NCBI GenBank assembly: GCA_041651535.1
Contig: JBAZIZ010000005.1
Span: 26,188 to 90,187 of the forward strand
Direction: 5' to 3'
Length of the DNA: 64,000 bases
From: Patescibacteria group bacterium
GTDB taxonomy: Bacteria > Patescibacteriota > Patescibacteriia > Magasanikbacterales > UBA922
The notes beneath the pieces were generated by a model, which ran no database searches, was not told the origin of the DNA, and was given only the letters and a program-made list of their open reading frames with translations. Of this stretch, positions 193 to 42,782 are shown in pieces. Position 1 is the first letter of the stretch, and the number at the start of each line of letters is the position of its first letter. Position numbers and translations under genes: made by a program.

Positions 193-229
193 TAAAAAAA
201 GTCAAAATTCAAAATTAAAAAGTAAAAAA

Positions 230-256
230 CCTGCATAGAGCGGGTTTTTTATTTTA
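230..256 (+). terminator. Putative intrinsic terminator after ftsZ
   Basis: Short stem cctgc...gcggg (one G.U pair) followed by a T-run at 245-256. Confidence 0.35.
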
Positions 257-269: not shown

Positions 270-728
270 TTGATTATTTATTATTTTAAAAATCTTATTA
301 CATCATTTTTTTTGTTTTTTACTTTTGACCATATTTTGTGCTATAATATAGACAATAAAATTTATACTATGTATTTATTAGTGTTGCAAAGAATATTATT
401 ATCATTTATTTGGGATTTTTTTTATTTCCCTCTTTGGTGGTATAGTTCGGGAACAAAAAAAGCTATAATTTATTGCTATCATTTTTTTGAATGTGGAAAT
501 GAATTTTTAGCCCCATGGATTTGGTTAAAAAATATTTTTGTACCAATGTTTGGACAATATGATTTTCAAGGACGTCTAGTAAGTTTTTTTGTCAGATTTT
601 TTAATGTATTTTTTAGACTACTGGCTTTATTTTTTTGGTTTTGGTTTGTACTTCTTTTATTTATTTTATGGTTTATTTTGCCGATTTTTGTTTTTTTTAT
701 GTTTTATATTTCGGTTTTTAAAAAATAA
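270..728 (+). CDS. Hypothetical Trp/Phe-rich membrane protein
   Basis: 152-aa ORF with several hydrophobic segments. It ends 2 nt before the next ATG. No recognisable motif. Confidence 0.3.
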   Translation: MIIYYFKNLITSFFLFFTFDHILCYNIDNKIYTMYLLVLQRILLSFIWDFFYFPLWWYSSGTKKAIIYCYHFFECGNEFLAPWIWLKNIFVPMFGQYDFQGRLVSFFVRFFNVFFRLLALFFWFWFVLLLFILWFILPIFVFFMFYISVFKK

Positions 729-730: not shown

Positions 731-3493
731 ATGCAGTTTAAAAGTAATGAAAAATTAAATTTATTAGCTTGCACTGACTGTAATCGTCCAGATAACAAAG
801 ATAGTAAAGTTTGTAAAATTTGTAAGACAAAAAGTCTAGGTCTTTTTTACGATAATAAGTTTTATTTTTTTCCAGTTATTTTTTCTGATTTTCACGTAAA
901 GTTAAAAAAAGCTACTAGAATTTTAAATAAATTTAGATTTATTTTTTCTTTTTTATTTTCTATTTTATTTTTTACTTTATTTTTTTTAGAAATTTACAGA
1001 AATAATTTATTTTTAGAATTATTTTCAGCTGAATTTTGGTTTAGTGAAGACTATGTTTTTCAAGGATTTTTTTGGTTAGCCATATTTTTTGTAATGTATT
1101 TTTGGTACAGACTGATTATGAGAGAAAAAAAGACATATTTTATAAATTATGAAAGAGGAATTGAAAAAAAAGAAGGAATATATAGTAAAACTTTAGAAAA
1201 AGATTTAACTTGGAATGATTTACCTAATTATTCAAAAAAAAATCAAATAAATATTTCTAAATTTTTAACTCCTGATGCTTGGAATGCTTTGCAAAATGCT
1301 TATGAATTGGCTAGAAAATTTAATAGTAGGGAAGTTAATATTGATCATCTTTTTATTAGTCTTTTAGATTTTCCAGCTATTCAAAATATTTTTATTAGAC
1401 TAGGCATTCCAGCTAAAATTTTACAAGCTAGATTTGTTCAGAGATTAAAAAAAGAAAAATACAAAAGTCAAATTCTTTTTAATGAAGATTTAAACCAAAT
1501 TTTATTTCACGGATTTTTTATTTCTAAAGAATTAAAAGATAATCGTTATCGTTTGACAGCTATTTTACTTTCTACAGTACAACAGTCAGAATTTTTACAA
1601 GAAGTCTTGTATGACTTAAAAATTGACAGTGAAAAATTAAAAAATGTAATTGAATGGGTAAGAATTAATGAAAAACTTTGGGAAAATTATCATGAATTTA
1701 GAAAAGCAGCTAGCGGAATAAATAAATATGGCATGGATCGAGCTATGACAGCTGTGGCTACACCTTATTTAAATAATTTTAGTCGTGATATTACAATTGC
1801 TGCTAAATATGGAAATTTAGATGCCTGTGTGGCTAGAGAAAAAGAAATTGAAGAAGTTTTTAGAATTTTAGAAGGCGGAAAAAACAATGTAGTTTTAGTA
1901 GGTGATCGGGGAGTTGGTAAATTAGCTCTTATCCAAGGTATAGTCCAAAAAATGATCAATGGCGATGCACCAAAAAAACTTTTGGATAAAAGATTTGTCC
2001 AAATTTCTACTTCGTCATTGATGGCCGGAACTACAATTGCTGGTGCTCAAGAAAGGATGATCAGAATAATGAATGAAGTTGCCAGAGCTGGAAATATAAT
2101 TTTGTTTATAAAAAATCTTCAAGATTTACTCACTGTTTCTGAAGGACAAAAAGAAGGTTTAGATGTCTCAGAAACTTTGGCAGAATATTTGTCTAGTGGT
2201 AGATTTATTATGTTTGCAACAACGACAAAAGAAGCTTATAACCAGTTTTTGACAAATACAGAAATCGGTTCAGTTTTTAGTAAGGTTGATGTTGAAGAAA
2301 TGAATATTAACCAAGCTATTCAAGTTTTAGAATCTAGAGTTTCTGTGGTTGAGTATAAAAATAGTGTATTTTTTTCTTATGAAGCAGTTGAATCTTGTGT
2401 AAATTTTGCAGATAAATTTTTTTATGATCAAAATTTACCAGAATCAGCTATATCACTTATGATGGAAGTTGCTAGTTATGTAAAAAGTAAACGTGGAAAA
2501 AATCAATTAGTGACAAAAGAAGATGTAGCTATAGTAATCAATGAAAAAACTGGAATTCCGGCTACTACTGTTTCTGAAGATGAAGGACAGAAATTATTAC
2601 GTCTGGAAGAAGAAATGCATAAACGTGTTGTGGGTCAAGATTTGGCTGTTTCTATGATTGCTAATGCTTTGCGTCGTGCTCGAGCTGAAATTAGATCTGT
2701 AAAAAAACCAATTGCCAACTTTTTATTTTTAGGTCCGACTGGAGTAGGAAAAACTGAATTAGCCAAAACTATCGCTGAAGTTTATTTTGGTGGTGAAAAA
2801 CAAATGATCAGAATTGATATGAGTGAGTTTCAAGATAAATCTTCAATTTATCGATTGATTGGTGAGCCAAATGTTCAAGGGACTGGAATTTTAACTGAAG
2901 CAGTCAGACAGAATCCTTTTTCTTTAGTTTTACTTGATGAACTTGAAAAAGCTGATCAAAATGTTTTAAATTTATTTTTACAAGTTTTTGACGACGGACG
3001 TCTTACTGATAGTGTAGGCAGAACAATAGATTTTACAAATACAATTATTATTGCGACTTCAAACGCTGGTTCTAGTTTTGTTCAAGATCAAGTTTCTAAA
3101 GGAATTGATTTAGAATCAGTTCGTGATATTTTATTAAAAAGTGAATTAAAAAATTATTATAAGCCAGAATTTTTAAATCGTTTTGACGGAGTTATTTTAT
3201 TTAAGGCTTTAAATAAAGAAGAAATAAAAATTATTGCCAGTTTAATGTTAAAAAGAGTTGCAAAAGATCTAGAAAAACGAGGTATAGAATTAAAAGTTGA
3301 AAATAGTGCTTTAAATTATTTAGCTGAAATTGGTTTTGATCCAGAATTTGGGGCTAGACCAATGCGACGAGCTATCCAAGATAAAGTTGAAAATAAATTA
3401 GCTGAAATAATTTTGAAAGGTGCTTTAAAAAGAAGAGATATTATTGTTTTAGGAGAAAATTGTGAGATAGAAATAAAATCAGCAAATAAATAA
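731..3493 (+). CDS. Clp/Hsp100-family AAA+ ATPase (ClpC/ClpA-like) with an N-terminal zinc-ribbon plus two TM helices and a degenerate D1 domain
   Basis: Clp_N-like repeats around aa 180-330. D1 P-loop reads GDRGVGKL (T/S replaced by L) and the D1 Walker B reads FIKNLQ (DE lost). D2 is canonical: GPTGVGKTELAK, LLDELEKA, sensor GARPMRRAI. The N-terminal about 150 aa has CTDCN...CKICK and two hydrophobic helices. Confidence 0.85.
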   Translation: MQFKSNEKLNLLACTDCNRPDNKDSKVCKICKTKSLGLFYDNKFYFFPVIFSDFHVKLKKATRILNKFRFIFSFLFSILFFTLFFLEIYRNNLFLELFSAEFWFSEDYVFQGFFWLAIFFVMYFWYRLIMREKKTYFINYERGIEKKEGIYSKTLEKDLTWNDLPNYSKKNQINISKFLTPDAWNALQNAYELARKFNSREVNIDHLFISLLDFPAIQNIFIRLGIPAKILQARFVQRLKKEKYKSQILFNEDLNQILFHGFFISKELKDNRYRLTAILLSTVQQSEFLQEVLYDLKIDSEKLKNVIEWVRINEKLWENYHEFRKAASGINKYGMDRAMTAVATPYLNNFSRDITIAAKYGNLDACVAREKEIEEVFRILEGGKNNVVLVGDRGVGKLALIQGIVQKMINGDAPKKLLDKRFVQISTSSLMAGTTIAGAQERMIRIMNEVARAGNIILFIKNLQDLLTVSEGQKEGLDVSETLAEYLSSGRFIMFATTTKEAYNQFLTNTEIGSVFSKVDVEEMNINQAIQVLESRVSVVEYKNSVFFSYEAVESCVNFADKFFYDQNLPESAISLMMEVASYVKSKRGKNQLVTKEDVAIVINEKTGIPATTVSEDEGQKLLRLEEEMHKRVVGQDLAVSMIANALRRARAEIRSVKKPIANFLFLGPTGVGKTELAKTIAEVYFGGEKQMIRIDMSEFQDKSSIYRLIGEPNVQGTGILTEAVRQNPFSLVLLDELEKADQNVLNLFLQVFDDGRLTDSVGRTIDFTNTIIIATSNAGSSFVQDQVSKGIDLESVRDILLKSELKNYYKPEFLNRFDGVILFKALNKEEIKIIASLMLKRVAKDLEKRGIELKVENSALNYLAEIGFDPEFGARPMRRAIQDKVENKLAEIILKGALKRRDIIVLGENCEIEIKSANK

Positions 3494-3494: not shown

Positions 3495-4571
3495 ATGTTT
3501 TTAGCTTATTTTTTATTTAGTTTTTTATTAAGTTGTATCACAACTTTTTTTGTGATTGTTTTGATGAGAAAAATGGCTATTTTTGATAAAGCAAAAAAAC
3601 AAAGTAGAAAAATTCATAAAAAAAATATCCCTCTTGGTGGTGGTTTAGCAATTTTTATTTCTGTGTTTTTACTTATTTTTTCATTGCTTTTAAGTAAAAG
3701 TCATTTTTTTTACATTGATATATTGCCAAGACAAATTTTAGGATTATTTATTGGTTCAATTATAATTATGATTGGTGGTTTTTTGGATGATAAATATGAT
3801 TTGCGACCACGATATCAAATTTTGTTTCCAATTTTAGCGAGTTTATCAATAATTTTTTTTGGTATCGGACCACATTTTATAACTAATCCTTTTGGTTTAG
3901 GAACTATAGATTTGAGTCGTTTTACTTTTAAAATATTTAATTTCGGTAATTTTGTACTTTTAGCTGATTTGTTAGTTTTTGTATGGTTAATGCTTATGAT
4001 GTACGCTACAAAATTTTTAGATGGTTTAGATGGTTTAGCTTCTGGAGTTTCTTTTATTGGTTCAATTGTTATCTTTTTTTTGTCATTGCAAGATAAATGG
4101 TATCAGCCAGATGTGGCCATGCTTGCAATTATTTTTGCTGGAGCTTGTCTGGGTTTTTTGTTATGGAATTGGTCCCCAGCAAAAATTTTTTTAGGTGAAG
4201 GTGGAAGTATTTTTTTGGGATTTTTCTTAGGAGTTTTAGCAATAATTTCTGGTGGCAAAATAGCAACAACTATGTTAGTTATGGCAATACCAATTTTAGA
4301 TATTTTTAGAGTTATTATTATCAGATGGAAAAAAGGACAAGCAATTTATAAAGGAGATAACGAACATATTCATCATAAATTATTAAAAATTGGTTTTAGT
4401 CAAAAACAAACAGTCTTAATTTTATTTTTTTTCAGTTTTTTGTGTGGCATGGGAGCACTATTTTTTCAAACTGGTGGTAAAGTTTTAACTTTTATATTTT
4501 TATCCATTGTGATGTTAATGATATTATTTTTTTCTTCTGTTAAAAATAAAAAATATGAGTTTAAAAAATAA
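3495..4571 (+). CDS. Polyprenyl-phosphate sugar-1-phosphate transferase, glycosyltransferase family 4 (MraY/WecA-like)
   Basis: Multi-pass membrane protein with DDKYDLRPRYQ and FLDGLDGLASG motifs characteristic of the MraY/WecA family. 358 aa. Confidence 0.75.
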   Translation: MFLAYFLFSFLLSCITTFFVIVLMRKMAIFDKAKKQSRKIHKKNIPLGGGLAIFISVFLLIFSLLLSKSHFFYIDILPRQILGLFIGSIIIMIGGFLDDKYDLRPRYQILFPILASLSIIFFGIGPHFITNPFGLGTIDLSRFTFKIFNFGNFVLLADLLVFVWLMLMMYATKFLDGLDGLASGVSFIGSIVIFFLSLQDKWYQPDVAMLAIIFAGACLGFLLWNWSPAKIFLGEGGSIFLGFFLGVLAIISGGKIATTMLVMAIPILDIFRVIIIRWKKGQAIYKGDNEHIHHKLLKIGFSQKQTVLILFFFSFLCGMGALFFQTGGKVLTFIFLSIVMLMILFFSSVKNKKYEFKK

Positions 4572-5016
4572 TAAACAAAAAATTTATTTGCTTGTATTTA
4601 TATTTTTTTTATTTTTTGCTTTTTTTTGGCAAAGATTTTATTTTCAAAAAATTGAAATCAATCTAGCTAATCAAGAATTAAAAGTTTTAGTAGCTAAAAG
4701 TATTTACCAACAAAAAAAAGGTTTGGGTGGTAGAAAAGAAATGAAAAATTTTGATGCCATGCTTTTTCCTTATAATTCTTTAGCTAGACATGGAATAGTC
4801 ATGCGAGATATGAATTTTGCGATTGATATTATCTGGCTAAAAAATACTGAAATAGTTGATATGGCACCACATGTTGATCCAGAACCAGGCGTAGATGAAG
4901 CAAAATTACATATTTATTACCCAAGAACAGTTGCAAATATGGTTTTGGAACTCCCAGCTGGTTTTATAGAACAAAATCAGTTAAAAATAGGTGATAAAAT
5001 TTTGATTGTGGAGTAA
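4555..5016 (+). CDS. DUF192-family protein (secreted or membrane-anchored)
   Basis: N-terminal hydrophobic segment. The central region MLFPYNS...MRDMNFAIDIIWL...ELPAGFIE resembles DUF192 (COG1430). It overlaps the upstream gene by 17 nt. Confidence 0.45.
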   Translation: MSLKNNKQKIYLLVFIFFLFFAFFWQRFYFQKIEINLANQELKVLVAKSIYQQKKGLGGRKEMKNFDAMLFPYNSLARHGIVMRDMNFAIDIIWLKNTEIVDMAPHVDPEPGVDEAKLHIYYPRTVANMVLELPAGFIEQNQLKIGDKILIVE

Positions 5017-5088: not shown

Positions 5089-5403
5089 ATGTTCGCAGTC
5101 ATTGAAACAGGCGGTAAACAATATTTGGTCAAAAAAGGCGACAAAATAAAAATAGAAAAATTAAACGCCGAAGTTGATTCGGAAGTAAGTTTTGACAAAG
5201 TTTTGCTTACTAGCGAAGAAGACGGAAAAAATACTAAAATTGGAACTCCTTATTTAGTAGGAACACAAGTTGTTGCTAAAGTTTTGGAAAATTCACGTAG
5301 TAAAAAAATTAGAGTGATCAAATACAAAAGAAAAGTTAGATACAAAAGAGCTAATGGTCATCGCCAACATTATACAAAAGTTTTGATAGAAAATATAAAA
5401 TAA
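5089..5403 (+). CDS. rplU: 50S ribosomal protein L21
   Basis: MFAVIETGGKQYLVKKGDKIKIEKL... is the typical L21 N-terminus. 104 aa with a basic C-terminus. Confidence 0.9.
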   Translation: MFAVIETGGKQYLVKKGDKIKIEKLNAEVDSEVSFDKVLLTSEEDGKNTKIGTPYLVGTQVVAKVLENSRSKKIRVIKYKRKVRYKRANGHRQHYTKVLIENIK

Positions 5404-5458
5404 TCCGCACTAAGCGGGTTTTTTATTTATTAAAAAATCCACTTATTTGAGTGGATTT
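5404..5458. terminator. Bidirectional terminator pair between rplU and the convergent gene
   Basis: Hairpin ccgcactaagcggg plus T-run (5404-5426), and hairpin atccacttatttgagtggat (5437-5456) flanked by A/T runs. Confidence 0.5.
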
Positions 5459-5475: not shown

Positions 5476-7233
5476 TTAATTTTTTAGTATTAAATTTTCG
5501 TTTACTTTTTTTATTTCTTTTTCTATAAAAGTATCAACAGCTGCCAAAGAATTATTTTTTAAAATAAGTAAATTTTTGGTTTCTTCTATATTTTTTGGAG
5601 TAAAAGCAACTTCAAAATAAACACCAACTTTTTCATGAGGATTTAAAGCTGTTGTTTCCCAATGAATATTATTATTTTTTTCATTAAAAATTATATTGTT
5701 TCCTTTGCTCACACTAGTTTTGCCAGTAAAAGAAATGTTAGCTGATAAATTTGTATCTAAAATTAAATTTTTTATACGACTACTGCCATTTTCAATTTCA
5801 AGAAAAACCCAATATTTGCTTTCTTTGTTAATTTCTGGTGGATTTGGTCCACGTCCGATTTGGTCTCCTTCGTTTGTGTAATATTTTAAACTTTGGTCAA
5901 AAATAATATTTGTGCCTATTTTAACTTCAGAAGTTTGACTATCAATTTCAAAAATATCCAAACTATTTTCAACTTCAGATTTAATTACCGGAGTTAAAAC
6001 TAATTTTATGTCAGTTCCTTGTGGATAAGTTAAAATTGGTAAGATAATTTCAATATTTTTTTCTTCGTTTTGAACCAATTTATTTATAATATTAATTTTT
6101 AAATTTTTATTGTTATAAGTAGCAATAGAATTTAAGTCTTTTATTTTATTACTATCAATTAAGGTTGTATCAATCGGAATATTTATTTCTAGGTTTTTTA
6201 AATCAGTGTCACCAGAATTTTTTAAATTTAAGTTTAATTTTAAATTTTCAGCTGGAGAAACTGAATTGATATTGTTTTGCCAATTGCTAGTTAAAATTAA
6301 GTCTGGATGTAAAATCACAAAATTATGAGAGATAGTATTTTGTTTTATTACTGTTTGATTAATTTCTAAACTAGGTGTGATAGAATAATTTATTTGCTTT
6401 GACTCAAAAGAATTTTTTAATTTTAAAATTACGGAAAATAATTGTTCTGTTTGTGGTTTAAGTTCGGAAATTTTTATAGTTGGCTCACCATAAATTACTG
6501 AAAAATTTTCATTTTCTAAATTGATTTCTATGTTATTTAAAATTAATTCACCATCATTTTTTATTTTCAATTTGATCGGAGTACTACCGTAGTCTAGGAT
6601 ATTATTATTAGCAATAATTTCAGTTTGTAATACTGAACCACGTGGTATAGTGATAAGTGGAATATATTTTTCTTCAATTCTAGATTTGTCTTCTTGTTTA
6701 TAAACCAATTTAGCATGAATAAAGTGGTGTTCGTCAGGAGTGCCGTAAAACCAACCAGAAATCATCACTGAACCACATTCACCAGCTTTGATATCTAACA
6801 AAGAGAATTCATTAGTTTTTTTATCAAAATTTTCTGGCAAAGTTTTATCAAGCATAAAACCTTGAGGTAATTCAATTTTTAAAATTGAATCTTCCATTTT
6901 TACCGTACTTTCATTTTTATAACTAATTTTGTAAGTGATATAATCACCACTTTTAATTTTTGTATTTGGTTGTTCAATATTTATGTAAACTAAATCAGTA
7001 ATTGTTGGGTCATAAGTCCACCAAAAAATTGTGGTAAATCCAATAAAAAAAATACTAATTAAAAGACATAAATCAAAAATAAAAAGTTTTTTGGCATGAA
7101 CATAATTTAGATGATAAACTTTTTTATAATGTTTTTCTGCTAAATGAATAGGGTAGATAATTGTAGCCAAAAACCATTTTAGAGGTGAATGACGTAAATG
7201 ATGCAGAGTAAAATAAGTTTCAAAAAATTTCAT
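5476..7233 (-). CDS. Hypothetical membrane-anchored protein with a large beta-rich extracytoplasmic region
   Basis: 585-aa ORF. N-terminal TM helix (FIFDLCLLISIFFIGFTTIFWW), then a long Asn/Ile/Lys-rich region. No recognised catalytic motif. Confidence 0.5.
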   Translation of the reverse strand: MKFFETYFTLHHLRHSPLKWFLATIIYPIHLAEKHYKKVYHLNYVHAKKLFIFDLCLLISIFFIGFTTIFWWTYDPTITDLVYINIEQPNTKIKSGDYITYKISYKNESTVKMEDSILKIELPQGFMLDKTLPENFDKKTNEFSLLDIKAGECGSVMISGWFYGTPDEHHFIHAKLVYKQEDKSRIEEKYIPLITIPRGSVLQTEIIANNNILDYGSTPIKLKIKNDGELILNNIEINLENENFSVIYGEPTIKISELKPQTEQLFSVILKLKNSFESKQINYSITPSLEINQTVIKQNTISHNFVILHPDLILTSNWQNNINSVSPAENLKLNLNLKNSGDTDLKNLEINIPIDTTLIDSNKIKDLNSIATYNNKNLKINIINKLVQNEEKNIEIILPILTYPQGTDIKLVLTPVIKSEVENSLDIFEIDSQTSEVKIGTNIIFDQSLKYYTNEGDQIGRGPNPPEINKESKYWVFLEIENGSSRIKNLILDTNLSANISFTGKTSVSKGNNIIFNEKNNNIHWETTALNPHEKVGVYFEVAFTPKNIEETKNLLILKNNSLAAVDTFIEKEIKKVNENLILKN

Positions 7234-9842: not shown

Positions 9843-10418
9843 ATGAAAGCAATTTCTAAATACAAAGAAAAGATACTACTACATAAAGTGAGAGAAAACG
9901 GAGATACACAAGCTTTCGCAGAACTTTATGATCTTTACATTGAAAAAATATATCGCTTCGTATTTTTGAAAGTATCAAATAAAGAAGAAGCAGAAGATAT
10001 AACAAGTGAAGTTTTTTTAAAGGTTTGGAATTATTTAATAAGTGAAAATGCTTCACAAAAAAAAATAAAAAGTTTCAGTGGACTTATTTATTCAATAGCC
10101 AGAAATTTAGTGATTGATTTTTATAGAAAAAAAATAAATAAAAACGAATGTCTGATAGAAAAAATAGAAGAGATGAATCCAGAAGAATTAGTTGGAGAAA
10201 ATAAAATTGAAAATACTTTGGATTTGAAATATGACATAAATAAAGTAATGATTGCGATTCGTGAATTAAAAAAAGAATATCAAGAATTACTTTTATTAAA
10301 ATATATTGAAGAATTATCAGTGATAGAAATTTCTGAAATAACTGGTAAAGGACAAACTAACATTAGAGTTACTTTACATCGAGCTTTAAAAATTTTAAAA
10401 AAAGAATTGGAAAAATAA
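9843..10418 (+). CDS. ECF-family RNA polymerase sigma factor (sigma-24 type)
   Basis: Region 2 AFAELYDLYIEKIYRFVFLKVSNKEEAEDITSEVFLKVW and region 4 ELSVIEISEITGKGQTNIRVTLHRALKILKKEL. Confidence 0.8.
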   Translation: MKAISKYKEKILLHKVRENGDTQAFAELYDLYIEKIYRFVFLKVSNKEEAEDITSEVFLKVWNYLISENASQKKIKSFSGLIYSIARNLVIDFYRKKINKNECLIEKIEEMNPEELVGENKIENTLDLKYDINKVMIAIRELKKEYQELLLLKYIEELSVIEISEITGKGQTNIRVTLHRALKILKKELEK

Positions 10419-10430: not shown

Positions 10431-11735
10431 ATGCGAGAACTTAAAAGACAACTTAAAATGATGAAACAAATAAAAAACGGAATAAATCCCGATTCTTTTT
10501 GGATGCAAAAAAATAAAGAAGATCTTTTAAATAGAATTGCTAATACAAATGTTGGAAATGAGAAAAAAATTGAAGTTTATGGAAAAAATTTAAGTTTAAT
10601 AATGAAATTTGAAAGAAATATTGAAGCCTTTATTCCACATAATTTCAAAAATGGTTTTAAACCAGCATTAATTGTATTTTTAGCTTTATTTTTTACTAGT
10701 GGTGGTTGGATAGCTAGTGCTTATGCTGAACCAGGAGATATGCTCTGGAGTACAAAAGTAGCTTTAAATAATGTTGTAGAAAAAAGTCAAATTGCTTTAG
10801 CTAATGAAGATGATGAAGCAGAATTACATCTAAAATTTGCTACTAAAAAAGCTGATGTAATCAAACAAGTTTCAGAAAAAACTGAAGTAGAAAAAGAAGA
10901 CAAAGCTAAAATTATAAAAGATACAAAAGATAAAATGAAAGAAAATTTAAATAGTGCAAATGAAAGTTTGAAAAAGATTTCGCCAGAAAAGGCTGGAGAA
11001 ATGGTAAAAGAAGTAAGTTTAAAAACAACCGAAATAACTAATTCTGTAAAAGCTTCTGCAGAAAAAATAGCTGAATCAGACATTGATTTAGCAAAAGATT
11101 TAGATGAAACTGCAAACGAAACTCAAAAAACAAGTTTGGAAATGGTAGAGGTCGTTTTACAAAAAAAAGTTGATGCTAATAATGAAATAACTGAAGAAGA
11201 AAAAAATATAGTTAGTGAACATATCGCAAACATAGTAACAAATTTAGAAACACATATTGATTCTTTAAAAACAGAAAAAGAAAAACAAGAAACTGAATTA
11301 AACAATATTAACCAATCAACCAGTACTTTAAATATAAATTCAAATATAGGAAATTCATTAAATAATTCAGTGACCACTGGTACTATAAATATTTCTGCTA
11401 ATAATAATATTGTAACTGGCACTTTAAATTTAAATGCCAATAGTACCACAATCAATTTAACTACCAGTACTATTTTAAATGCAGAAAAAATAATTGAAGT
11501 AAAAAATATTTTAGATCAGACAAGACAAGAATTAGAAAAAGGAAAAGATGAAGCAACAAATTTAATACAAGATGATGTCCTTGGAGCAATTCAAAAAACA
11601 AAACAAATAACTAATGTAGCAAAAGAAGCAGAAATAAAAATAGATATTATAGTAAAAAATACAGCGACAGAAACAGTTCAAACAAATATTGTTAGTAGTA
11701 CTGAAGCAATAAAAACTGAAGAAATTAAAAATTAA
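10431..11735 (+). CDS. Putative single-pass anti-sigma factor or membrane protein cotranscribed with the ECF sigma
   Basis: It starts 13 nt after the sigma gene. Cytoplasmic N-terminus of about 75 aa, TM helix (LIVFLALFFTSGGWIASAYA), then coiled-coil and Asn/Thr-rich low-complexity repeats. Confidence 0.45.
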   Translation: MRELKRQLKMMKQIKNGINPDSFWMQKNKEDLLNRIANTNVGNEKKIEVYGKNLSLIMKFERNIEAFIPHNFKNGFKPALIVFLALFFTSGGWIASAYAEPGDMLWSTKVALNNVVEKSQIALANEDDEAELHLKFATKKADVIKQVSEKTEVEKEDKAKIIKDTKDKMKENLNSANESLKKISPEKAGEMVKEVSLKTTEITNSVKASAEKIAESDIDLAKDLDETANETQKTSLEMVEVVLQKKVDANNEITEEEKNIVSEHIANIVTNLETHIDSLKTEKEKQETELNNINQSTSTLNINSNIGNSLNNSVTTGTINISANNNIVTGTLNLNANSTTINLTTSTILNAEKIIEVKNILDQTRQELEKGKDEATNLIQDDVLGAIQKTKQITNVAKEAEIKIDIIVKNTATETVQTNIVSSTEAIKTEEIKN

Positions 11736-12070: not shown

Positions 12071-15000
12071 ATGAACGATGTATTAAAATTCGGTAAAAAA
12101 TTATTTACCTTTTCTGTTGTCGCTTTGACAATCGCTTGGAGCATGGGTCTTGCTACTCTTGTACCAACAGTTGTAAAAGCTGAAGAATGTCCAGCTTTAG
12201 AAGCTGGAGATTTGTACAAAGTTCCAGGAAGCAATTCAGTTTATTACTTGAATTCTGAAATGGAATCAATGTACTTCCCAACAGAAGAAGTATTCAATTC
12301 ATGGGGATTTAGTTTTTCTGATGTAAAAACTATCCCAAACACTTGTTTCGACATGTACGAACAAGCTACACCTGCTGGTTTAAATTTCCGCCCTGGTTCA
12401 CGTCTTGTTAAAAGAGTAGAATCACCTACGGTTTATGCCGTATTGCCTGGAAATACTAGAGCAGCTATCGGAAGCGAAGCTGTTGCCAAAGCTCTATATG
12501 GTGAAAACTGGGCTAAATTGGTAAGAGATCTTCCTGGTGTATTTATGTCAAATTTCTTGAGTACTGGTGCAGCACTTGATGAATCAGTACCTCATAACGG
12601 ACAATTCGTAAAAGAAACCGGTTCAGACAAAGTTTACTTTGCTATGGACGGTAAATTATACGAAGTTGACGGTGACGTAACTGCTGATGTTAGAACAGTT
12701 TCTGCTACTGTACTAAGTAAATTAGACAAGAGCACTGAAACAGTAACTTTAGCTTCAACAATGGAAGACCCAGCACAATTGGGTGAAACTTCAGGTGACA
12801 CAACTACAGTAGTAGGTGGTGATTTAGCTGTATCTTTATCAGCTAATAGTCCTGAAGCTGCTACAGTACCTATCAATATCGACAATGTAGAATTTGCAAA
12901 AGTTATCTTCAAAGCTTTAGATGAAGATGTAGTTGTAAACTCTATCAAAATTGGTCGTAGAGGTTTAGGTTCTGATTCAGATTTTGCTTCTGTAACTCTT
13001 TATGATGAAAATAATGTAAAATTGGGTAATACCAAAACATCTTGGACATCAGATGGTTACATGAACTACAATATTTCTGGTGGTTGGACAATCCCTGCTG
13101 GAAAATCAAAAACTCTTACAATCACTGCAAAATTGGATACAGCAGGAACATACAATGCTCTTGGTGTTGAAGATGTAACAACAAAAGGTAGTGATGTAAA
13201 TGGATTACCTGTTTATGGTAACAAAATGAACGGTGTTAATGTAACCGTTGGACAAGTTACTATTACAGATGAAGGTACTCCAGCTACAAAGAAAATCGGT
13301 GAAACAGATGTAAAATTAGCTAAATTTAAATTAGCTATGTCTCCAACAGAAGATGCAGAATTATACTCTGTAACATTGAAAAACAGAGGTACAGCTAGTG
13401 ATGGCGACATTGCTAATATGTACTTAATGGTTGGCGCAACAGAATTAGCTGCTGACGCTACAATGGAATCTGATTATGTAACATTCGTTTTAGAAGAACC
13501 ATATTTGATTGAAAAATCAAAAAATGAAACTTTCACAGTTTATGGTGATATCGTAAACGGAGACGGTAATACAGTTGAATTCACATTAAAAGATACAACC
13601 GATTTAAAAATGATTGGTGAAAGCTATAATTCTCAAGTTACAGTTGTAAATACAGATTACAATGACGCTGGAGACGGTTCTGTTATCACTATGGATGGAG
13701 CTGAATTAAATATCAGTTTCTCAAGTACAGCTATTGATACAATGGATGATCAAACAGATGTAGAATTTGGTACTTTAACTTTAAGTGCTGGAAGTACAGA
13801 TGTAAACATCACTTCATTGGTAATGTCAATGGTTGAAGTAAATGGTGATGGAAGTGCTGCAAATAACTGGGATATTGATGAATTAGAAATCGTTGATACA
13901 AAAACAGGCGCAGCTTATTCTGGAACAATGACATTGGGTGATTTGCCTGATGACACTTCAGCAGATGCTGATGCAGAAACTTGGACTTTTGATGATGAAA
14001 TCTATTTAGAAGCTGGAAAAACTTATACATTCACTGTTCGTGGTGATGTTCCAGCTAATGTAGGTAATGGTGATGAATATTATTTAACCATGACCGTTAA
14101 TACAACAAATTTACAAGCTGAAACACAACCTGAAGGTGATACTGTTGATAATTTCTCAATCGGATCATTCACAGGTAAAAAAGTTACTGTTAAAACTCCT
14201 TCTTTGAAAGTAAGATCAACCAACTTGTCTAGCATTGATGTAGTAGAAGACCAAGAAAACGTAGTAGTTTTCGAAGGTACAATGGAAGCTGTTGCTGGTG
14301 ATGTAAGAGTAGAAAGAGCAATCTTCCGTGCTACAACAACAAATGCTTATTTTGACACAGATAACTGGTCTGAAATAGGTCTTTATGTAAATGGTACAAA
14401 AGAACAACTTCTTACTAACTCTCAATTAGATGAAGGTTCAATCGATTTTGATACTGTTGATTTCACTGTTACAAAAGGTAGCAAAGTTACCTTTAAAGTA
14501 ATGGGTAAAATCGCTTCTACTGCTGATGATACAAACAAAGATACAAAAATTGAATTGTATTCTATGACAGTAAAAGATGATGATAATGATACAGTTACAG
14601 CTACAAATAGTGCTGGTACAGAAATTGATGAAAACAACGTAATTTCTACAGCTAGAACAGTTTCAGTTAGAACTACAGGTATTTTGTATGTTCAAATGAG
14701 AAACAACGATACTGGCTTTAATAAAGACAGAATCGTATTAGCTGGTTCAGAATCAACAGTTGGTAAATTAAGAATAAGAGCTGATTACGAAGATATTAAA
14801 ATCGAAGATTTAGTTCTTACAAATGCTAATGCTACTTCAAATGATTCAGTAGAATCAGTATGCTTATTAGAAGGTACTACAGAAGTAGCTTGTACAACTT
14901 TAGATGGTTCAACAGCTACCTTTACAGACTTGAATAAAGTTATAACAAAAGGTACACATGATTGGACAATCAAAGTTAAATTCAACAATATCGGTAAAGA

Positions 15001-15790
15001 TTATACCGGTGATACTCATGATTCAGTTGCATTCAAAGTTGCTAACACTGGAGTTACTGCTCGTGGTGTAGACAGCGGAGATGCATTAGCTTATGCTAAT
15101 GACGGAGCTTCTGCTGGAGAAATCGTATTTGACTTAGGTCTTAACGATACATTCGGTGAAGCAGGTGATACTGAAACAGCAAGTTCAAAAGCTTTCTATT
15201 TATCAGCTTCAAGATTATCAGCAGTTTCTACTGTAAGTTCTTACGGTGGTGAAACAGTTGATACAGCTATCAGCGCTGAAGGTCAATATACAGCTATGAT
15301 TATTTCTGTAACTGCAGAAAATAATACAAATACTGATTTAAACGGTAATGCTGTAAAAACTCTTTTAGATGCTATTAGATTAGATGTTGCTAAAAATGCA
15401 AGTACAACATTCTCTGGTGCTACAATCAAGAGAATCAATGGTGCTGTAGCAGCAAAAGCTTTGACAGTTTCAGATTCTGGCGCAACAGCCACATTAGTAA
15501 CTTCAAGTTTGTCTACTGTTTTAGGCGATGATGCAAAAATCAACGCTGGTGAAACAGCTTACTATGTAGTAAAGGTAACCGTAAATGGTTTATCTACAGC
15601 TACAAACGTAGTAAACTGGTTCCAAGTAAACATGGATGATTTGAAAGGTGCTGGTACTGGTGCTGATGCCGACAATAACATCGATTGGTATGATGGTTAT
15701 AACGGCGTAAGCAACACAGTATTTAATGGTTTATTGCTTGATACAGAAACTATTACTGGTACAAAATTATCAGCTCCAAAGAATAACTAG
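12071..15790 (+). CDS. Large secreted Thr/Asp/Gly/Val-rich cell-surface protein (S-layer-like or adhesin-like); probably highly expressed
   Basis: Signal peptide MNDVLKFGKKLFTFSVVALTIAWSMGLATLVPTVVKAEE. 1239 aa, acidic, beta-rich and repetitive. Codon usage (GCT/GGT/GAC/ACA bias, higher GC) differs from neighbouring genes. Confidence 0.7.
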   Translation: MNDVLKFGKKLFTFSVVALTIAWSMGLATLVPTVVKAEECPALEAGDLYKVPGSNSVYYLNSEMESMYFPTEEVFNSWGFSFSDVKTIPNTCFDMYEQATPAGLNFRPGSRLVKRVESPTVYAVLPGNTRAAIGSEAVAKALYGENWAKLVRDLPGVFMSNFLSTGAALDESVPHNGQFVKETGSDKVYFAMDGKLYEVDGDVTADVRTVSATVLSKLDKSTETVTLASTMEDPAQLGETSGDTTTVVGGDLAVSLSANSPEAATVPINIDNVEFAKVIFKALDEDVVVNSIKIGRRGLGSDSDFASVTLYDENNVKLGNTKTSWTSDGYMNYNISGGWTIPAGKSKTLTITAKLDTAGTYNALGVEDVTTKGSDVNGLPVYGNKMNGVNVTVGQVTITDEGTPATKKIGETDVKLAKFKLAMSPTEDAELYSVTLKNRGTASDGDIANMYLMVGATELAADATMESDYVTFVLEEPYLIEKSKNETFTVYGDIVNGDGNTVEFTLKDTTDLKMIGESYNSQVTVVNTDYNDAGDGSVITMDGAELNISFSSTAIDTMDDQTDVEFGTLTLSAGSTDVNITSLVMSMVEVNGDGSAANNWDIDELEIVDTKTGAAYSGTMTLGDLPDDTSADADAETWTFDDEIYLEAGKTYTFTVRGDVPANVGNGDEYYLTMTVNTTNLQAETQPEGDTVDNFSIGSFTGKKVTVKTPSLKVRSTNLSSIDVVEDQENVVVFEGTMEAVAGDVRVERAIFRATTTNAYFDTDNWSEIGLYVNGTKEQLLTNSQLDEGSIDFDTVDFTVTKGSKVTFKVMGKIASTADDTNKDTKIELYSMTVKDDDNDTVTATNSAGTEIDENNVISTARTVSVRTTGILYVQMRNNDTGFNKDRIVLAGSESTVGKLRIRADYEDIKIEDLVLTNANATSNDSVESVCLLEGTTEVACTTLDGSTATFTDLNKVITKGTHDWTIKVKFNNIGKDYTGDTHDSVAFKVANTGVTARGVDSGDALAYANDGASAGEIVFDLGLNDTFGEAGDTETASSKAFYLSASRLSAVSTVSSYGGETVDTAISAEGQYTAMIISVTAENNTNTDLNGNAVKTLLDAIRLDVAKNASTTFSGATIKRINGAVAAKALTVSDSGATATLVTSSLSTVLGDDAKINAGETAYYVVKVTVNGLSTATNVVNWFQVNMDDLKGAGTGADADNNIDWYDGYNGVSNTVFNGLLLDTETITGTKLSAPKNN

Positions 15791-26150: not shown

Positions 26151-26175
26151 ATCACTCGTAAGTATAGAGTGATAA
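26149..26175 (+). promoter_or_regulatory. CIRCE-like HrcA operator (TTATCACTC-N9-GAGTGATAA)
   Basis: Perfect 9-bp inverted repeat with a 9-nt spacer, one position off the canonical TTAGCACTC-N9-GAGTGCTAA. It sits immediately upstream of hrcA. Confidence 0.65.
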
Positions 26176-26180
26176 AACAT

Positions 26181-26858
26181 ATGAATAATCGTCAAGATAA
26201 AATTTTACAGTTTATCATAGAAAATTATATTAAAGATGCTGAACCAGTTGGTTCAAAATTTTTGATATCTAATTTTGATTTGGAAATAGGTGAAGCCACT
26301 GCTAGAAATGAAATGCGTTCTTTGGAAGAACAAGGTTTTTTGTCGCATCCACACACTTCATCAGGTAGAATTCCAACTGAAACTGGTTATAAATATTATA
26401 TAAACAATTTAATGAAACCAAAGAAAATTTCCACTCGTGATAGTGAAGATATAATAAAAATTTTAGCAGAAAAAGATGAAGAAAATAGATTAAAACTTTT
26501 AGGCAAAATTTTAGCAGAAAAAACTGGTTTGGCTGTGATAGTTAATATCAAAAAAGATTTTATTTATTATACTGGACTTTCTAATTTATTTTCTCAGCCA
26601 GAATTTAGAGATTATAATTTAACGATTAATGTTTCAGGAATTTTTGATCGTTGTGAACATCGAATTTGTGATTTGAATAATAAAATGAAGACCAAAGAAA
26701 TCCAATGTTTTCTAGGAAAAGAAAATCCTTTGGATGCTACTTGTTCACTTTTTGGTTTAAAAATTTCTGACCATAAAATAATCACTGTTTTAAGTCCACT
26801 GCGTACTGATTATAAAAAAGTATTTTCTTATTTCAATTATTTAAAAGAATTATTTTAA
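26181..26858 (+). CDS. hrcA: Heat-inducible transcription repressor HrcA (short form)
   Basis: MNNRQDKILQFIIENYIKDAEPVGSKFL winged-helix N-terminus. The start is set at the ATG after the operator; the ORF-track start 26169 overlaps CIRCE. Confidence 0.75.
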   Translation: MNNRQDKILQFIIENYIKDAEPVGSKFLISNFDLEIGEATARNEMRSLEEQGFLSHPHTSSGRIPTETGYKYYINNLMKPKKISTRDSEDIIKILAEKDEENRLKLLGKILAEKTGLAVIVNIKKDFIYYTGLSNLFSQPEFRDYNLTINVSGIFDRCEHRICDLNNKMKTKEIQCFLGKENPLDATCSLFGLKISDHKIITVLSPLRTDYKKVFSYFNYLKELF

Positions 26859-26864
26859 TTTTAT

Positions 26865-27377: not shown

Positions 27378-27401
27378 AAATAAATTTTAATTTTAAAATA
27401 T

Positions 27402-27830: not shown

Positions 27831-28040
27831 AAAGCAAAAAGGAAAAAGTCAAAAATTTTCAATAAGAATGGATAAAATATAAAATTTGTTTATCTAAAAA
27901 AACAAAGTTTATATAAAAAACTTTCTTTAAAAAATGACTTTAGACTTTTGACTTTTGACTTATAACATTTAAATCAAAATAAACACAGCAAATTACAAAA
28001 ATTTACTAAAAAAATTTAATCATTAATTAATATAAAAATT

Positions 28041-29954: not shown

Positions 29955-30051
29955 AAATTATTTCAATAAAGTTAAGGATAAGTTTTTTTAGACTTGTCCT
30001 TAATCATTATTAAAATATTCTTGCTTAATTAGCAGGTTAAAATAAAAAAAT

Positions 30052-30366: not shown

Positions 30367-30374
30367 TTTAATTT

Positions 30375-41577: not shown

Positions 41578-41770
41578 GTCTGAACGCGGTTTTATTGTGT
41601 TAAAATTATATACTTTTTTTTTGCTAATGTCAATAAATAAATTAAAAATCAAAAATGTAAAATTAAAAATATGTATTTTTTAGAAGCGTCATTTTTTGAA
41701 TTTTTCATTTTGAATTTTTCGTTGATTGTGGTATTATTATAATAAGAAAAGTTTAAAATTAAATAAAATT

Positions 41771-42775: not shown

Positions 42776-42782
42776 ATTTTTT

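What the first reader, a model, noticed from the sequence alone, without database searches (positions are those of the whole stretch)
731..3493. Clp/Hsp100 ATPase with a catalytically degenerate D1 ring and an N-terminal zinc-ribbon plus membrane anchor
D2 has canonical GPTGVGKT and DELEKA motifs. In D1 the P-loop reads GVGKL, so the Mg-coordinating Thr/Ser is lost, and the Walker B acidic pair is replaced by KN (FIKNLQ). D1 probably binds or senses but does not hydrolyse ATP. The first about 150 residues add CTDCN...CKICK and two hydrophobic helices before the Clp_N repeats, implying a membrane-tethered unfoldase. No clpP was seen in the window. That combination is unusual for ClpC/ClpA/ClpB.
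Basis: seen in the sequence. Interest (0 to 1): 0.55.

Follow-up and report, generated by a model that had tools for sequence, protein, structure and literature searches.

The report
Membrane-anchored Clp-like ATPase, dead first ring
This is a real, strongly conserved Patescibacteria-specific cousin of the ClpA/B/C protein-unfolding machines: it is membrane-tethered, has lost catalysis in its first ATPase ring, lacks the usual substrate-gripping tyrosines and the ClpP-docking loop, always sits next to a small unknown membrane protein, and no published description was found.

Summary
ORF 731..3493 (920 aa) is a two-ring Clp/Hsp100 protein. D2 has all its catalytic residues. D1 has lost the P-loop Thr (GVGKL) and both Walker-B acidic residues (IKN).

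D1 has also lost its pore-loop Tyr and its Arg fingers. The D2 pore loop is four residues shorter and has no aromatic residue. There is no M-domain and no ClpP-docking loop.

The N-terminus is genuine. Four invariant Cys form a zinc ribbon, followed by a two-helix membrane hairpin and a true Clp N-domain fold (AF2 pLDDT 89.6).

All of this holds in the 120 closest homologues. About 200 clusters at 50% identity share the N-terminal module; every one with a source name is Patescibacteria. None of 69 diverse full-length members keeps the D1 catalytic Glu.

A 119-aa membrane protein with no family match (369..728) lies directly upstream in 80/80 species-representative loci and in all seven distant loci inspected. 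The usual order is mraZ-rsmH-ftsL-partner-ATPase-WecA-like GT4-DUF192-rplU.

Best reading: a ClpP-independent, D2-driven, membrane-tethered remodelling ATPase that works with its partner in envelope or division biology. This function is inferred, not shown. It is a new variant of a known kind.

The parts
219..255 (+). Terminator-like hairpin downstream of the end of the upstream ftsZ gene
   Evidence: Consensus scan, 16-bp stem followed by a T run. ftsZ lies upstream in the contig (L005).
318..347 (+). Best sigma-70-like promoter match (TTTACT-18-TATAAT, with a TG extended -10), 21 nt before the partner ATG
   Evidence: 10/12 match. This is a consensus match only; promoter-like sites are not enriched over shuffles in the region.
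369..728 (+). Partner gene: a 119-aa hydrophobic protein with no family match. Motifs YFP(L/I)WWY and LKNIFVPMFGQxDxQGR.
   Evidence: Identical to NCBI hypothetical protein WC414_03385 (P0271). No Pfam or NCBIfam hit. AF2 pLDDT 92.5, helices 2-47, 49-54 and 66-117. No PDB fold match. The ATPase gene lies immediately downstream in 80/80 species-representative loci and in 7 distant loci.
731..3493 (+). Clp/Hsp100-like ATPase, 920 aa. Its ATG starts 2 nt after the partner stop codon.
761..871 (+). N-terminal C4 zinc ribbon (C14, C17, C28, C31) plus a beta hairpin (res 35-47)
   Evidence: The four Cys are invariant in 78 aligned homologues. All four are kept in 52/69 distant representatives. AF2 strands 35-40 and 43-47. 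Only a sub-threshold Pfam DZR hit, E 0.1.
920..1120 (+). Membrane hairpin: TM1 at about res 64-89, a short acidic loop with the F102-W103 motif (W103 invariant; nt 1034-1039), TM2 at about res 110-130. K/R-rich flanks on both cytoplasmic sides.
   Evidence: Hydropathy of the query and the family average. AF2 helices 53-91, 100-104 and 111-130 with pLDDT above 90. W103 120/120, F102 109/120.
1271..1615 (+). Clp N-domain (res 181-295)
   Evidence: Weak Pfam Clp_N hit. Foldseek against PDB: ClpC, ClpC1, ClpB and Hsp104 N-domains, TM-score on target 0.7-0.85, E about 1e-6.
1628..1711 (+). Conserved long helix (res 300-327) between the N-domain and D1. ClpC has only a short N-domain-to-D1 linker at this point.
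   Evidence: AF2 helix. K302 and W309 invariant.
1763..2560 (+). D1 AAA+ module, catalytically degenerate. Walker A GDRGVGKL (1901-1924), pore loop AGTTIAGAQER (2024-2056, no Tyr), Walker B ILFIKN (2099-2116), Arg-finger site IGSVFSKV (2264-2287, RR lost), AAA_lid_9.
   Evidence: Mean pairwise identity 0.65 (large subdomain) and 0.61 (small subdomain).
2561..3445 (+). D2 AAA+ module with all catalytic residues. Walker A GPTGVGKT (2732-2755), Walker B LVLLDE (2924-2941), sensor-1 N778, Arg finger R817, sensor-2 R876. The pore loop is shortened and non-aromatic, GEPNVQGTG (2861-2887). The site where ClpA/ClpC carry the ClpP-docking loop (3056-3130) has no such loop.
3495..4571 (+). GT4 polyprenyl-phosphate sugar-phosphate transferase, closer to WecA/TagO than to MraY. 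Its ATG starts 1 nt after the ATPase stop codon.
   Evidence: Pfam Glycos_transf_4, 3.6e-30. NCBIfam wecA 4.3e-29 against mraY 4.2e-15, both below their cut-offs. Found downstream in 53/66 evaluable loci.
4555..5016 (+). DUF192 protein; overlaps the end of the GT4 gene by 17 nt
   Evidence: Found downstream in 56/66 evaluable loci.
5089..5420 (+). rplU (ribosomal protein L21), followed by a terminator-like hairpin at 5402-5420
   Evidence: L21 is downstream in 53/66 evaluable loci.

Best explanation
**What it is (shown).** The gene encodes a full-length member of a Patescibacteria-restricted branch of class-I (two-ring) Clp/Hsp100 AAA+ proteins. A cytoplasmic C4 zinc ribbon is followed by a two-helix membrane hairpin that returns the chain to the cytoplasm. 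Then come a genuine Clp N-domain, a conserved linker helix, a D1 module that cannot hydrolyse ATP, and a D2 module with every catalytic residue intact. It lacks the M-domain that couples ClpB to DnaK or ClpC to MecA, and it lacks the loop that docks ClpA/C/E onto ClpP. It is co-transcribed and probably translationally coupled with a dedicated 119-aa membrane protein. In most genomes the pair sits at the head of the division/cell-wall cluster, followed by a WecA-like lipid-carrier glycosyltransferase and a DUF192 protein.

**How it probably works (inferred).**
- It assembles as a hexamer held against the inner face of the membrane by twelve TM helices.
- The conserved but dead D1 ring serves as an assembly, nucleotide-binding or regulatory ring. 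This is the role D1 mainly plays in ClpA and the role the inactive ring plays in NSF or Pex1/6.
- D2 alone supplies ATP-driven work.
- The zinc ribbon, the N-domain and the partner's conserved cytoplasmic loop form the client or adaptor site at the membrane.
- The machine acts without ClpP, remodelling or extracting one or a few dedicated membrane or envelope/division clients. It is not a general unfoldase.
- In this clade both pore loops are non-aromatic, so the grip is probably weak or non-canonical.
For: **Architecture and motif registration.**

**D1 is dead but under selection.**
- In the 120 closest homologues the Walker-A Thr position is M98/V6/L5, the catalytic-Glu position is N109, the pore Tyr is absent and the RR finger is absent. 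Walker-A Lys is kept in 116/120 and sensor-1 Thr in 118/120.
- The catalytic Glu is absent in 0/69 diverse representatives.
- D1 pairwise identity is 0.65, against 0.47 for the N-domain.

**D2 is competent.** D736 and E737 (Walker B), N778, R817, R876 and R879 are invariant in 120/120. The D2 Walker A GxxGxGKT motif is found in all 120 (119 as GPTGVGKT/GPTGTGKT-type with minor P/S/A variation).

**No M-domain and no ClpP loop.**

**The N-terminus is real and confidently modelled.**. The N-domain fold is confirmed.

**Partner linkage.** 80/80 species-representative loci, plus 7/7 distant loci whose wider context differs.

**Operon signals.** Gene junctions are gaps of 2 and 1 nt and a 17-nt overlap, with a promoter-like site upstream and terminator-like hairpins on both sides.

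**Division/cell-wall context.** mraZ+rsmH upstream in 66/71 evaluable loci, ftsL in 52/71, GT4 downstream in 53/66, DUF192 in 56/66. ftsA-ftsZ lie upstream in this contig.

**Restricted N-terminal module.** phmmer of residues 1-340 against 1.84 billion representatives gives 200 hits. All 150 listed are about 850-960 aa (one 1231 aa) or shorter, probably fragments. Every hit that carries a source name is Patescibacteria or Parcubacteria.
Against: - No experiment or expression data exist. Hexamerisation, D1 nucleotide binding, partner binding and the client are all inferred.
- The lack of aromatic pore-1 residues in both rings is hard to reconcile with any translocation-type mechanism, so even 'remodeller' may be wrong in detail.
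- Division/cell-wall linkage is clade-specific. In other Patescibacteria lineages the pair follows tgt and precedes glyS, an M16 peptidase and an AI-2E transporter. A division-specific role is therefore not universal.
- I could not scan whole genomes, so the presence of ClpP, or of a second canonical ClpB/ClpC, is unknown.
- TM topology rests on hydropathy, the positive-inside pattern and AF2, not on a dedicated predictor.
Confidence: 0.55

Rival explanations
1. It is an ordinary ClpC/ClpA-type unfoldase subunit of a ClpP protease, as public annotation says ('ATP-dependent Clp protease ATP-binding subunit'), merely diverged in a fast-evolving lineage.
For: Best sequence matches are ClpC, ClpB and ClpA. 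It has a Clp N-domain fold. Source names call it ClpC.
Against: - The ClpP-docking tripeptide loop is deleted: a 7-residue gap falls exactly at S. aureus ClpC 'RFAGFGG', and there is no IGL as in ClpA. It is absent across the broad family.
- D1 is catalytically dead and both pore tyrosines are missing.
- All NCBIfam equivalog scores are less than half of their cut-offs.
- No ClpP was found in the window or in 1.13 Mb of related loci.
Confidence: 0.05
2. It is a ClpB-like disaggregase that cooperates with the DnaK system, here simply tethered to the membrane to clear aggregated membrane proteins.
For: It has no ClpP loop, like ClpB. The highest NCBIfam score is to ClpB. An hrcA-grpE-hsp20-dnaK-dnaJ operon lies in the same window.
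Against: - The roughly 120-residue M-domain that mediates DnaK coupling is completely absent.
- Both pore-loop tyrosines, which by established knowledge are needed for ClpB threading, are absent.
- D1 is inactive.
- The gene is not in the heat-shock operon. It sits in a division/envelope operon with a dedicated partner.
Confidence: 0.12
3. It is not a translocase at all. It is an ATP-driven switch or clamp, whose D2 hydrolysis toggles the conformation or oligomeric state of the partner membrane protein or a divisome or envelope complex. This would resemble Torsin or the way FtsEX transmits ATP hydrolysis across the membrane.
For: - In this clade no aromatic pore-1 residue exists in either ring, yet the replacement loops are themselves highly conserved: AGTTVSGAQER in D1, GQPGQQGTG in D2.
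- There is an obligate membrane partner with a highly conserved cytoplasmic loop.
- The short extracytoplasmic loop carries an invariant Trp.
Against: 12 of 69 distant family members still carry an aromatic residue in the D2 pore loop, several as GAPPGY or GAPPGF. They have the same partner and, in one case, the same GT4-DUF192 neighbours. This suggests the ancestral mechanism was pore-based. There is no direct evidence for a switch.
Confidence: 0.23
4. It is an artefact: a mis-called start, a gene fusion from misassembly, or a decaying pseudogene.
For: None, apart from the unusual motifs and the existence of a small ORF directly upstream.
Against: - The ORF is intact.
- The same architecture and length (880-930 aa) recur in the 120 closest cluster representatives listed (of 1,212 clusters at E <= 1e-20) from NCBI, JGI, ENA and Logan assemblies.
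- Conservation starts at M1.
- AF2 models residues 1-345 at pLDDT 89.6.
- The upstream ORF is a separate conserved gene.
Confidence: 0.01

Closest known systems
ClpA (E. coli type)
   Same: Two AAA+ rings with no M-domain: Walker A to Walker A spacing is 277 aa here against 281 in ClpA. It has a Clp N-domain. By established knowledge, ClpA D1 mainly supports assembly and D2 does most of the work.
   Different: ClpA D1 is catalytically active and has a pore Tyr. ClpA has the IGL ClpP-docking loop and is soluble. The TIGR02639 score is 461 against a cut-off of 993.
ClpC / ClpE (Firmicutes)
   Same: These are the best PDB sequence matches: ClpC 6em9 at E 6e-131, ClpE 29hb at E 5e-121. It shares the N-domain fold of ClpC. 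ClpE also starts with a C4 zinc ribbon (established knowledge).
   Different: Both have active D1 and D2 rings, a short M-domain, pore tyrosines and a ClpP-docking loop, and both are soluble. None of these features is present here. The Pfam ClpX-type zinc-finger model does not match.
ClpB / Hsp104 disaggregases, and single-ring Skd3/CLPB
   Same: They have no ClpP loop. This gives the highest NCBIfam score (ClpB, 543 bits). Skd3 shows that a ClpB-D2-type ring can work alone (established knowledge).
   Different: ClpB needs its long M-domain and both pore tyrosines. Skd3 keeps its pore Tyr. Here the M-domain and the tyrosines are absent.
Double-ring AAA+ proteins with one inactive ring (NSF D2, Pex1/Pex6 D1); plant SMAX1/D53 Clp-like proteins
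   Same: One ring is retained as a conserved, non-hydrolysing structural or regulatory module. SMAX1 appears as a weak PDB hit (9kkx).
   Different: They belong to a different AAA+ clade (NSF, Pex) or are eukaryotic signalling repressors (SMAX1). None has the zinc ribbon, TM hairpin and membrane-partner arrangement.
Membrane-anchored or membrane-docked AAA+ machines: FtsH, Msp1/ATAD1, Plasmodium PTEX HSP101
   Same: An AAA+ ring is held at a membrane to act on membrane or translocating clients. HSP101 is itself a ClpB-type Hsp100 docked on a membrane pore, and its N-domain appears among the fold hits (4irf and 4iod).
   Different: FtsH carries a protease domain. Msp1 is single-ring. HSP101 is soluble and docks through partner proteins. 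All keep aromatic pore loops (established knowledge).

Membership tests
Clp/Hsp100 class I (two-ring) superfamily | Two tandem AAA+ modules with an AAA_lid_9 D1-small domain and a ClpB_D2-small C-terminal domain | tested here: met
   Pfam AAA_lid_9 at 526-610, AAA_2 at 659-819, ClpB_D2-small at 827-905. Full-length alignment to ClpA, ClpB and ClpC.
Clp/Hsp100 class I (two-ring) superfamily | Clp N-domain (double Clp_N repeat fold) | tested here: met
   AF2 model plus Foldseek: ClpC, ClpC1, ClpB and Hsp104 N-domains, TM-score 0.7-0.85. The Pfam Clp_N hit is weak, 24 bits.
ClpC | Catalytically competent D1 (GxxGxGKT and hhhhDE) | tested here: not met
   GDRGVGKL and ILFIKN; conserved across 120 homologues.
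ClpC | Short coiled-coil M-domain (the MecA / resting-state contact) | tested here: not met
   No insertion between D1-small and D2; the spacing equals that of ClpA.
ClpC / ClpA / ClpE | ClpP-docking (I/V)G(F/L) loop in D2 | tested here: not met
   A 7-residue gap falls at ClpC 'RFAGFGG'. There is no IGL as in ClpA. The loop is absent in all broad-family representatives inspected.
ClpA | NCBIfam TIGR02639 equivalog cut-off (993 bits) | tested here: not met
   460.7 bits.
ClpA | Works with the ClpS adaptor and ClpP | tested here: inconclusive
   No ClpS or ClpP in the 64-kb window or in 1.13 Mb of related loci. Whole genomes could not be scanned.
ClpB | Long M-domain (about 120-aa coiled coil) inserted in D1-small | tested here: not met
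   The region is gapped in all family members in the MAFFT alignment with E. coli ClpB.
ClpB | Pore-1 loop tyrosines in D1 (KYRG) and D2 (GYVG) | tested here: not met
   D1 has TTIAGA. D2 has EPNVQG with a 4-residue deletion. No aromatic in 120/120 close homologues.
ClpB | NCBIfam TIGR03346 equivalog cut-off (1232 bits) | tested here: not met
   543.2 bits.
ClpE | N-terminal ClpX-type C4 zinc finger directly preceding D1, with no Clp N-domain | tested here: not met
   A C4 ribbon is present, but a TM hairpin and a Clp N-domain follow it. There is no match to a ClpX-type zinc-finger model, only DZR at E 0.1.
ClpV / TssH | TIGR03345 cut-off (885 bits) and a type VI secretion gene context | tested here: not met
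   428.8 bits. No T6SS genes among the neighbours.
FtsH-type membrane AAA+ protease | C-terminal M41 peptidase domain | tested here: not met
   No peptidase domain in the Pfam scan.
Anti-phage defence Clp-like proteins (Dodola DolB, PDC-M37B) | Specific match to the PADLOC model and a defence-island context | tested here: not met
   Only generic D2-level hits (DolB 4.5e-33, against ClpB 1e-162). The context is housekeeping and conserved across the lineage.

The most novel reading that the evidence does not exclude
The 119-aa membrane protein and the zinc-ribbon/TM Clp-like ATPase together form a previously unrecognised, Patescibacteria-specific membrane machine of the division/envelope operon. 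Its only active ring has given up the aromatic pore loops. It would then use ATP to switch or extract a dedicated envelope or divisome component by a non-threading mechanism, a new working mode for an Hsp100-type protein. It might stand in for divisome or envelope functions that these reduced genomes lack.
Probability: 0.25. Interest if true: 0.8.

Novelty: new variant of a known kind. Interest (0 to 1): 0.6.

Why it matters
Patescibacteria (the Candidate Phyla Radiation, CPR) make up a very large share of bacterial diversity. Their cell biology is almost unknown because few can be cultured.

This two-gene module is found in hundreds of species-level genomes (362 loci among GTDB species representatives). 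In many of them it sits at the head of the division/cell-wall cluster, in the position between ftsL and a lipid-carrier glycosyltransferase. That points to a lineage-specific component of envelope or division biology.

For AAA+ mechanism it is a natural experiment. It is an Hsp100 protein with a permanently dead D1 ring, and in one large clade it has no aromatic pore loops in either ring. Related lineages keep a D2 pore tyrosine or phenylalanine with the same partner. That gives a ready-made comparison for asking what the pore loops and the D1 ring are needed for.

Public annotation as 'Clp protease ATP-binding subunit ClpC' is misleading, because the ClpP-docking loop is absent.

Tried and rejected
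- **ClpP, ClpX, ClpS.** tblastn with the E. coli proteins against the window and against 88 related loci totalling 1.13 Mb found nothing beyond the D2-level ClpX similarity. This does not settle presence genome-wide.
- **Partner protein.** Pfam, also at E up to 10, and NCBIfam gave no family. Foldseek against PDB gave no match.
- **N-terminal 180 residues.** Only sub-threshold DZR and DUF6249 hits.
- **afdb50 fold library.** Not available on the machine, so no search for the zinc-ribbon/TM/Clp_N architecture among AlphaFold models.
- **PADLOC.** Only generic ClpB-like hits (DolB, PDC-M37B). A defence role was rejected because of the lineage-wide housekeeping context.
- **Literature.** Six full-text searches found no description of a membrane-anchored or D1-dead Clp protein in Patescibacteria.
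- **Pseudogene or mis-start.** Considered and rejected.
- **GT4 as MraY.** The position in the division/cell-wall cluster suggested MraY, but the HMM scores favour a WecA/TagO-like enzyme, and both are below their cut-offs.
- **Tyr707.** It is conserved in 115/120 and replaces a Ser of ClpA/B/C nine alignment positions before the lost pore Tyr. I considered whether it could substitute for the pore Tyr. This could not be tested without a hexamer model and is left open.


Full report
**1. The observation**

The ORF at 731..3493 (+) encodes 920 aa. Pfam finds a weak Clp_N (190-234), AAA_lid_9 (526-610), AAA_2 (659-819) and ClpB_D2-small (827-905). No AAA model passes its cut-off on D1.

NCBIfam scores against ClpB, ClpA, ClpG, ClpK and ClpV are all less than half of their curated cut-offs. 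The best solved relatives are S. aureus and B. subtilis ClpC, ClpB and ClpE.

These are phmmer against ClpC and MAFFT with E. coli ClpA and ClpB, fetched.
- D1 Walker A is GDRGVGKL, against GEPGVGKT.
- D1 Walker B is ILFIKN, against ILFIDE.
- D2 has GPTGVGKT and LLDELEKA.
- Coordinates were re-translated.

The two CxxC pairs (14-17 and 28-31) and two hydrophobic segments (about 64-89 and 110-130) are present.

**2. It is a conserved family, not an accident**

The protein is identical to an NCBI MAG protein from a 'Patescibacteria group bacterium'. The 120 best cluster representatives are 52-77% identical and mostly full length (880-934 aa). They are named Magasanikbacteria, Parcubacteria or Patescibacteria where named at all.

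In these 120:

| Feature | State in the 120 closest homologues |
|---|---|
| D1 P-loop Thr position (398) | M98 / V6 / L5; Thr in 2 by motif scan |
| D1 Walker-B Asp position (461) | N52 / K31 / D18 |
| D1 catalytic-Glu position (462) | N109 / G6 / A2 |
| D1 pore loop | AGTTVSGAQER instead of AG(A/T)KYRGEFEER; no Tyr |
| D1 double Arg finger (RRF) | replaced by (T/S)VF |
| D1 Walker-A Lys | kept in 116 |
| D1 sensor-1 Thr | kept in 118 |
| D2 Walker A | GxxGxGKT in all 120 |
| D2 Walker B (D736, E737), N778, R817, R876, R879 | invariant |

D1 is more conserved than the N-terminal domains. Mean pairwise identity is 0.65 and 0.61 for D1, 0.79 and 0.70 for D2, 0.47 for the N-domain, 0.36 for the TM hairpin and 0.42 for the zinc ribbon. 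D1 is therefore a selected pseudo-ATPase module and not a decaying one.

**3.

(a) The D2 pore-1 loop GAPPGYVGY is replaced by a loop four residues shorter with no aromatic residue. It is GEPNVQGTG here and GQPGQQGTG in most homologues, in 120/120. Its glycines are invariant, so the loop is itself under selection.

(b) There is no M-domain. The family aligns gap-free with ClpA across the ClpB insertion.

(c) The ClpP-docking loop is missing. A 7-residue gap falls exactly at ClpC 'RFAGFGG', and there is no IGL as in ClpA.

(d) A conserved long helix (300-327) links the N-domain to D1.

**4. The N-terminus**

Conservation starts at Met1. C14, C17, C28, C31 and W103 are invariant in 78 aligned homologues.

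AlphaFold2 on residues 1-345 with this alignment gives pLDDT 89.6 and pTM 0.84. The model contains:
- a ribbon and beta hairpin (35-47);
- a helix at 53-91;
- a short helix at 100-104 carrying the F102-W103 motif;
- a helix at 111-130;
- a helical domain at 181-295;
- a long helix at 300-327.

Foldseek against the PDB matches residues about 181-320 to ClpC, ClpC1, ClpB and Hsp104 N-domains (TM-score on target 0.7-0.85, E about 1e-6).

Lys and Arg cluster before TM1 and after TM2, and the loop between them is acidic. This fits an N-in/C-in hairpin with the zinc ribbon and the whole ATPase in the cytoplasm. That topology is inferred.

It fails for the N-terminal extension, although a separate upstream gene does exist (section 5).

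**5. A dedicated partner and a conserved operon**

The ORF listed as 270..728 really starts at 369 (MYLLVLQR...). It is identical to NCBI hypothetical protein WC414_03385, 119 aa. It has no Pfam or NCBIfam family.

Its motifs YFP(L/I)WWY and LKNIFVPMFGQxDxQGR are almost invariant. AF2 gives pLDDT 92.5 with helices 2-47, 49-54 and 66-117, and there is no PDB fold match.

I scanned GTDB species-representative genomes with the partner alignment. This found 362 loci, and the best 80 were kept. Counts over those 80:

| Neighbour | Found / evaluable loci |
|---|---|
| Clp-like gene immediately downstream, same strand | 80 / 80 |
| mraZ + rsmH upstream | 66 / 71 |
| ftsL-like gene upstream | 52 / 71 |
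| GT4 transferase downstream | 53 / 66 |
| DUF192 downstream | 56 / 66 |
| rplU downstream | 53 / 66 |

In the window's own contig the genes upstream are ybeY-dgkA-ftsA-ftsZ.

Within the window:
- A terminator-like hairpin (219-255) follows the end of ftsZ.
- The best promoter-like site (318-347) precedes the partner.
- The gene junctions are gaps of 2 nt and 1 nt and an overlap of 17 nt.

The GT4 scores better as WecA/TagO-like (4.3e-29) than as MraY (4.2e-15), and both are below their cut-offs.

**6. The wider family**

phmmer of residues 1-340 against 1.84 billion representatives gives only 200 hits at E below 1e-3. All 150 listed are about 850-960 aa (one 1231 aa) or shorter, probably fragments. 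Those that carry names are Patescibacteria or Parcubacteria.

In 69 full-length representatives:

| Feature | Count out of 69 |
|---|---|
| D1 catalytic Glu | 0 |
| D1 Walker-A Lys | 56 |
| D1 Walker-A Thr/Ser | 30 |
| D1 RR Arg finger | 6 |
| D1 pore-loop aromatic | 5 |
| D2 GKT (Walker A) | 68 |
| D2 DE (Walker B) | 65 |
| D2 pore-loop aromatic (several as GAPPGY/F) | 12 |
| All four zinc-ribbon Cys | 52 |

No representative inspected has a ClpP loop.

I inspected seven distant members. One keeps the mraZ context, and one keeps GT4-DUF192-rplU after tgt. The others sit between tgt and glyS, an M16 peptidase and an AI-2E transporter, or elsewhere. All seven have a partner homologue directly upstream, including one that the source annotation did not call (L094).

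The invariant core is therefore partner plus ATPase. The division/cell-wall position is clade-specific. Loss of D1 hydrolysis is family-wide. Loss of the D2 aromatic is derived in this clade.

**7. Mechanism**

*Shown:* the architecture, the motif states, the conservation and the gene linkage.

*Follows from established AAA+ knowledge:*
- Without the Walker-B Glu and the Arg fingers, D1 cannot hydrolyse ATP.
- D2 has everything needed to hydrolyse ATP.
- Without the (I/V)G(F/L) loop the protein cannot dock on ClpP.
- Without an M-domain it cannot be coupled to DnaK the way ClpB is, or to MecA the way ClpC is.

*Inferred:*
- It forms a hexamer tethered by twelve TM helices.
- D1 is an assembly or nucleotide-sensing ring.
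- D2 is the sole motor.
- The zinc ribbon, the N-domain and the partner's cytoplasmic loop form the client or adaptor platform.
- The clients belong to envelope or division biology.

Whether the client is threaded is open. The non-aromatic but conserved pore loops argue for a weak-grip or non-threading mode in this clade. The aromatic D2 loops in sister lineages argue for an ancestral pore-based mechanism.

**8. Rivals**

- A conventional ClpC-ClpP subunit is contradicted by the missing docking loop, the dead D1 and the sub-threshold family scores.
- A ClpB-type DnaK-dependent disaggregase is contradicted by the absent M-domain and tyrosines and by the operon context, although a dnaK operon is present elsewhere in the window.
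- A pure ATP-driven switch remains a serious alternative.
- An artefact or pseudogene is excluded.

**9. Novelty**

Six literature searches found no description of this family. Databases call it 'ATP-dependent Clp protease ATP-binding subunit (ClpC)', 'AAA family ATPase' or 'hypothetical protein'.

It clearly belongs to the Clp/Hsp100 superfamily, but it fails the defining tests of ClpA, ClpB, ClpC, ClpE and ClpV. I rate it a new variant of a known kind and moderately high in interest. It is lineage-wide, mechanistically odd and uncharacterised, but it rests on sequence inference alone.

**10. Limits**

- Whole genomes could not be scanned for ClpP or other Hsp100 paralogues.
- No multimer modelling was possible.
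- The afdb50 fold library was unavailable.
- TM topology is not from a dedicated predictor.

Noticed in passing
window 26169-31484 (+): A heat-shock operon: hrcA-like (26169-26858), grpE, an Hsp20, dnaK (28041-29954), DUF3467 (30052-30366) and dnaJ (30375-31484). The DnaK system is therefore present. The Clp-like gene is not part of this operon.
   Followed up: partly
window 50782-63878: A probable mobile or defence island with raised GC (0.36-0.39 at 54-60 kb). It holds a type IIG Eco57I/MmeI-like RM enzyme (50782-53463), a serine recombinase (54373-55710, -), a weak terminase-large-like ORF (55796-57298, -), a ParB-N6/N4 methylase (57698-59026, -), then DruA (59655-60824), NurA (60826-62034) and a HerA-like ATPase (62043-63878).
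   Followed up: partly
window 12071-15790 (+): A 1239-aa ORF with no Pfam hit on record in the source's precomputed table and no NCBIfam hit; it was not scanned against Pfam here. It lies in a stretch of higher GC (0.34-0.36 against about 0.27 around it). The 434-aa ORF before it (10431-11735), next to an ECF-type sigma factor (9843-10418), also has no family hit.
   Followed up: no
window 41726-45920 (+): A PilT/T2SSE-type ATPase (41726-42775) is followed directly by a class-B PBP transpeptidase (42783-44552) and a tandem LOG / SLOG-cluster-4 protein (44562-45920). The PBP shows that the organism makes peptidoglycan, although the division/cell-wall-cluster position holds a WecA-like GT4.
   Followed up: no
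window 5476-7233 (-); L090 2679-4646; L093 2502-4424; L095 1620-3602: A large DUF11/CLIPPER-type (CARDB-like) predicted surface protein recurs within a few kb of the partner-ATPase pair. It does so both in this window and in distant Patescibacteria lineages whose context is otherwise different.
   Followed up: no
window 2849-2851 (Tyr707 of the ATPase): A Tyr conserved in 115/120 close homologues replaces the Ser of ClpA/B/C ('SVSRLVG' becomes 'SIYRLIG'), just before the shortened D2 pore loop. Only 13/69 distant representatives have it. Whether it compensates for the lost pore Tyr is unknown.
   Followed up: partly
loci L010, L011, L015, L021, L023, L058 and others: Many GTDB representative MAGs that carry this Magasanikbacteria-type operon are titled 'uncultured Gammaproteobacteria bacterium' in their records. 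This includes the 1.23-Mb chromosome OZ246405.1. It looks like a systematic mislabel by the submitter.
   Followed up: no
L005 1-3875 (contig upstream of the window): A gene for a 3059-aa protein with VWA and weak T4SS_pilin/TIG hits lies a few kb upstream of ybeY-dgkA-ftsA-ftsZ, which themselves precede the partner-ATPase operon.
   Followed up: no
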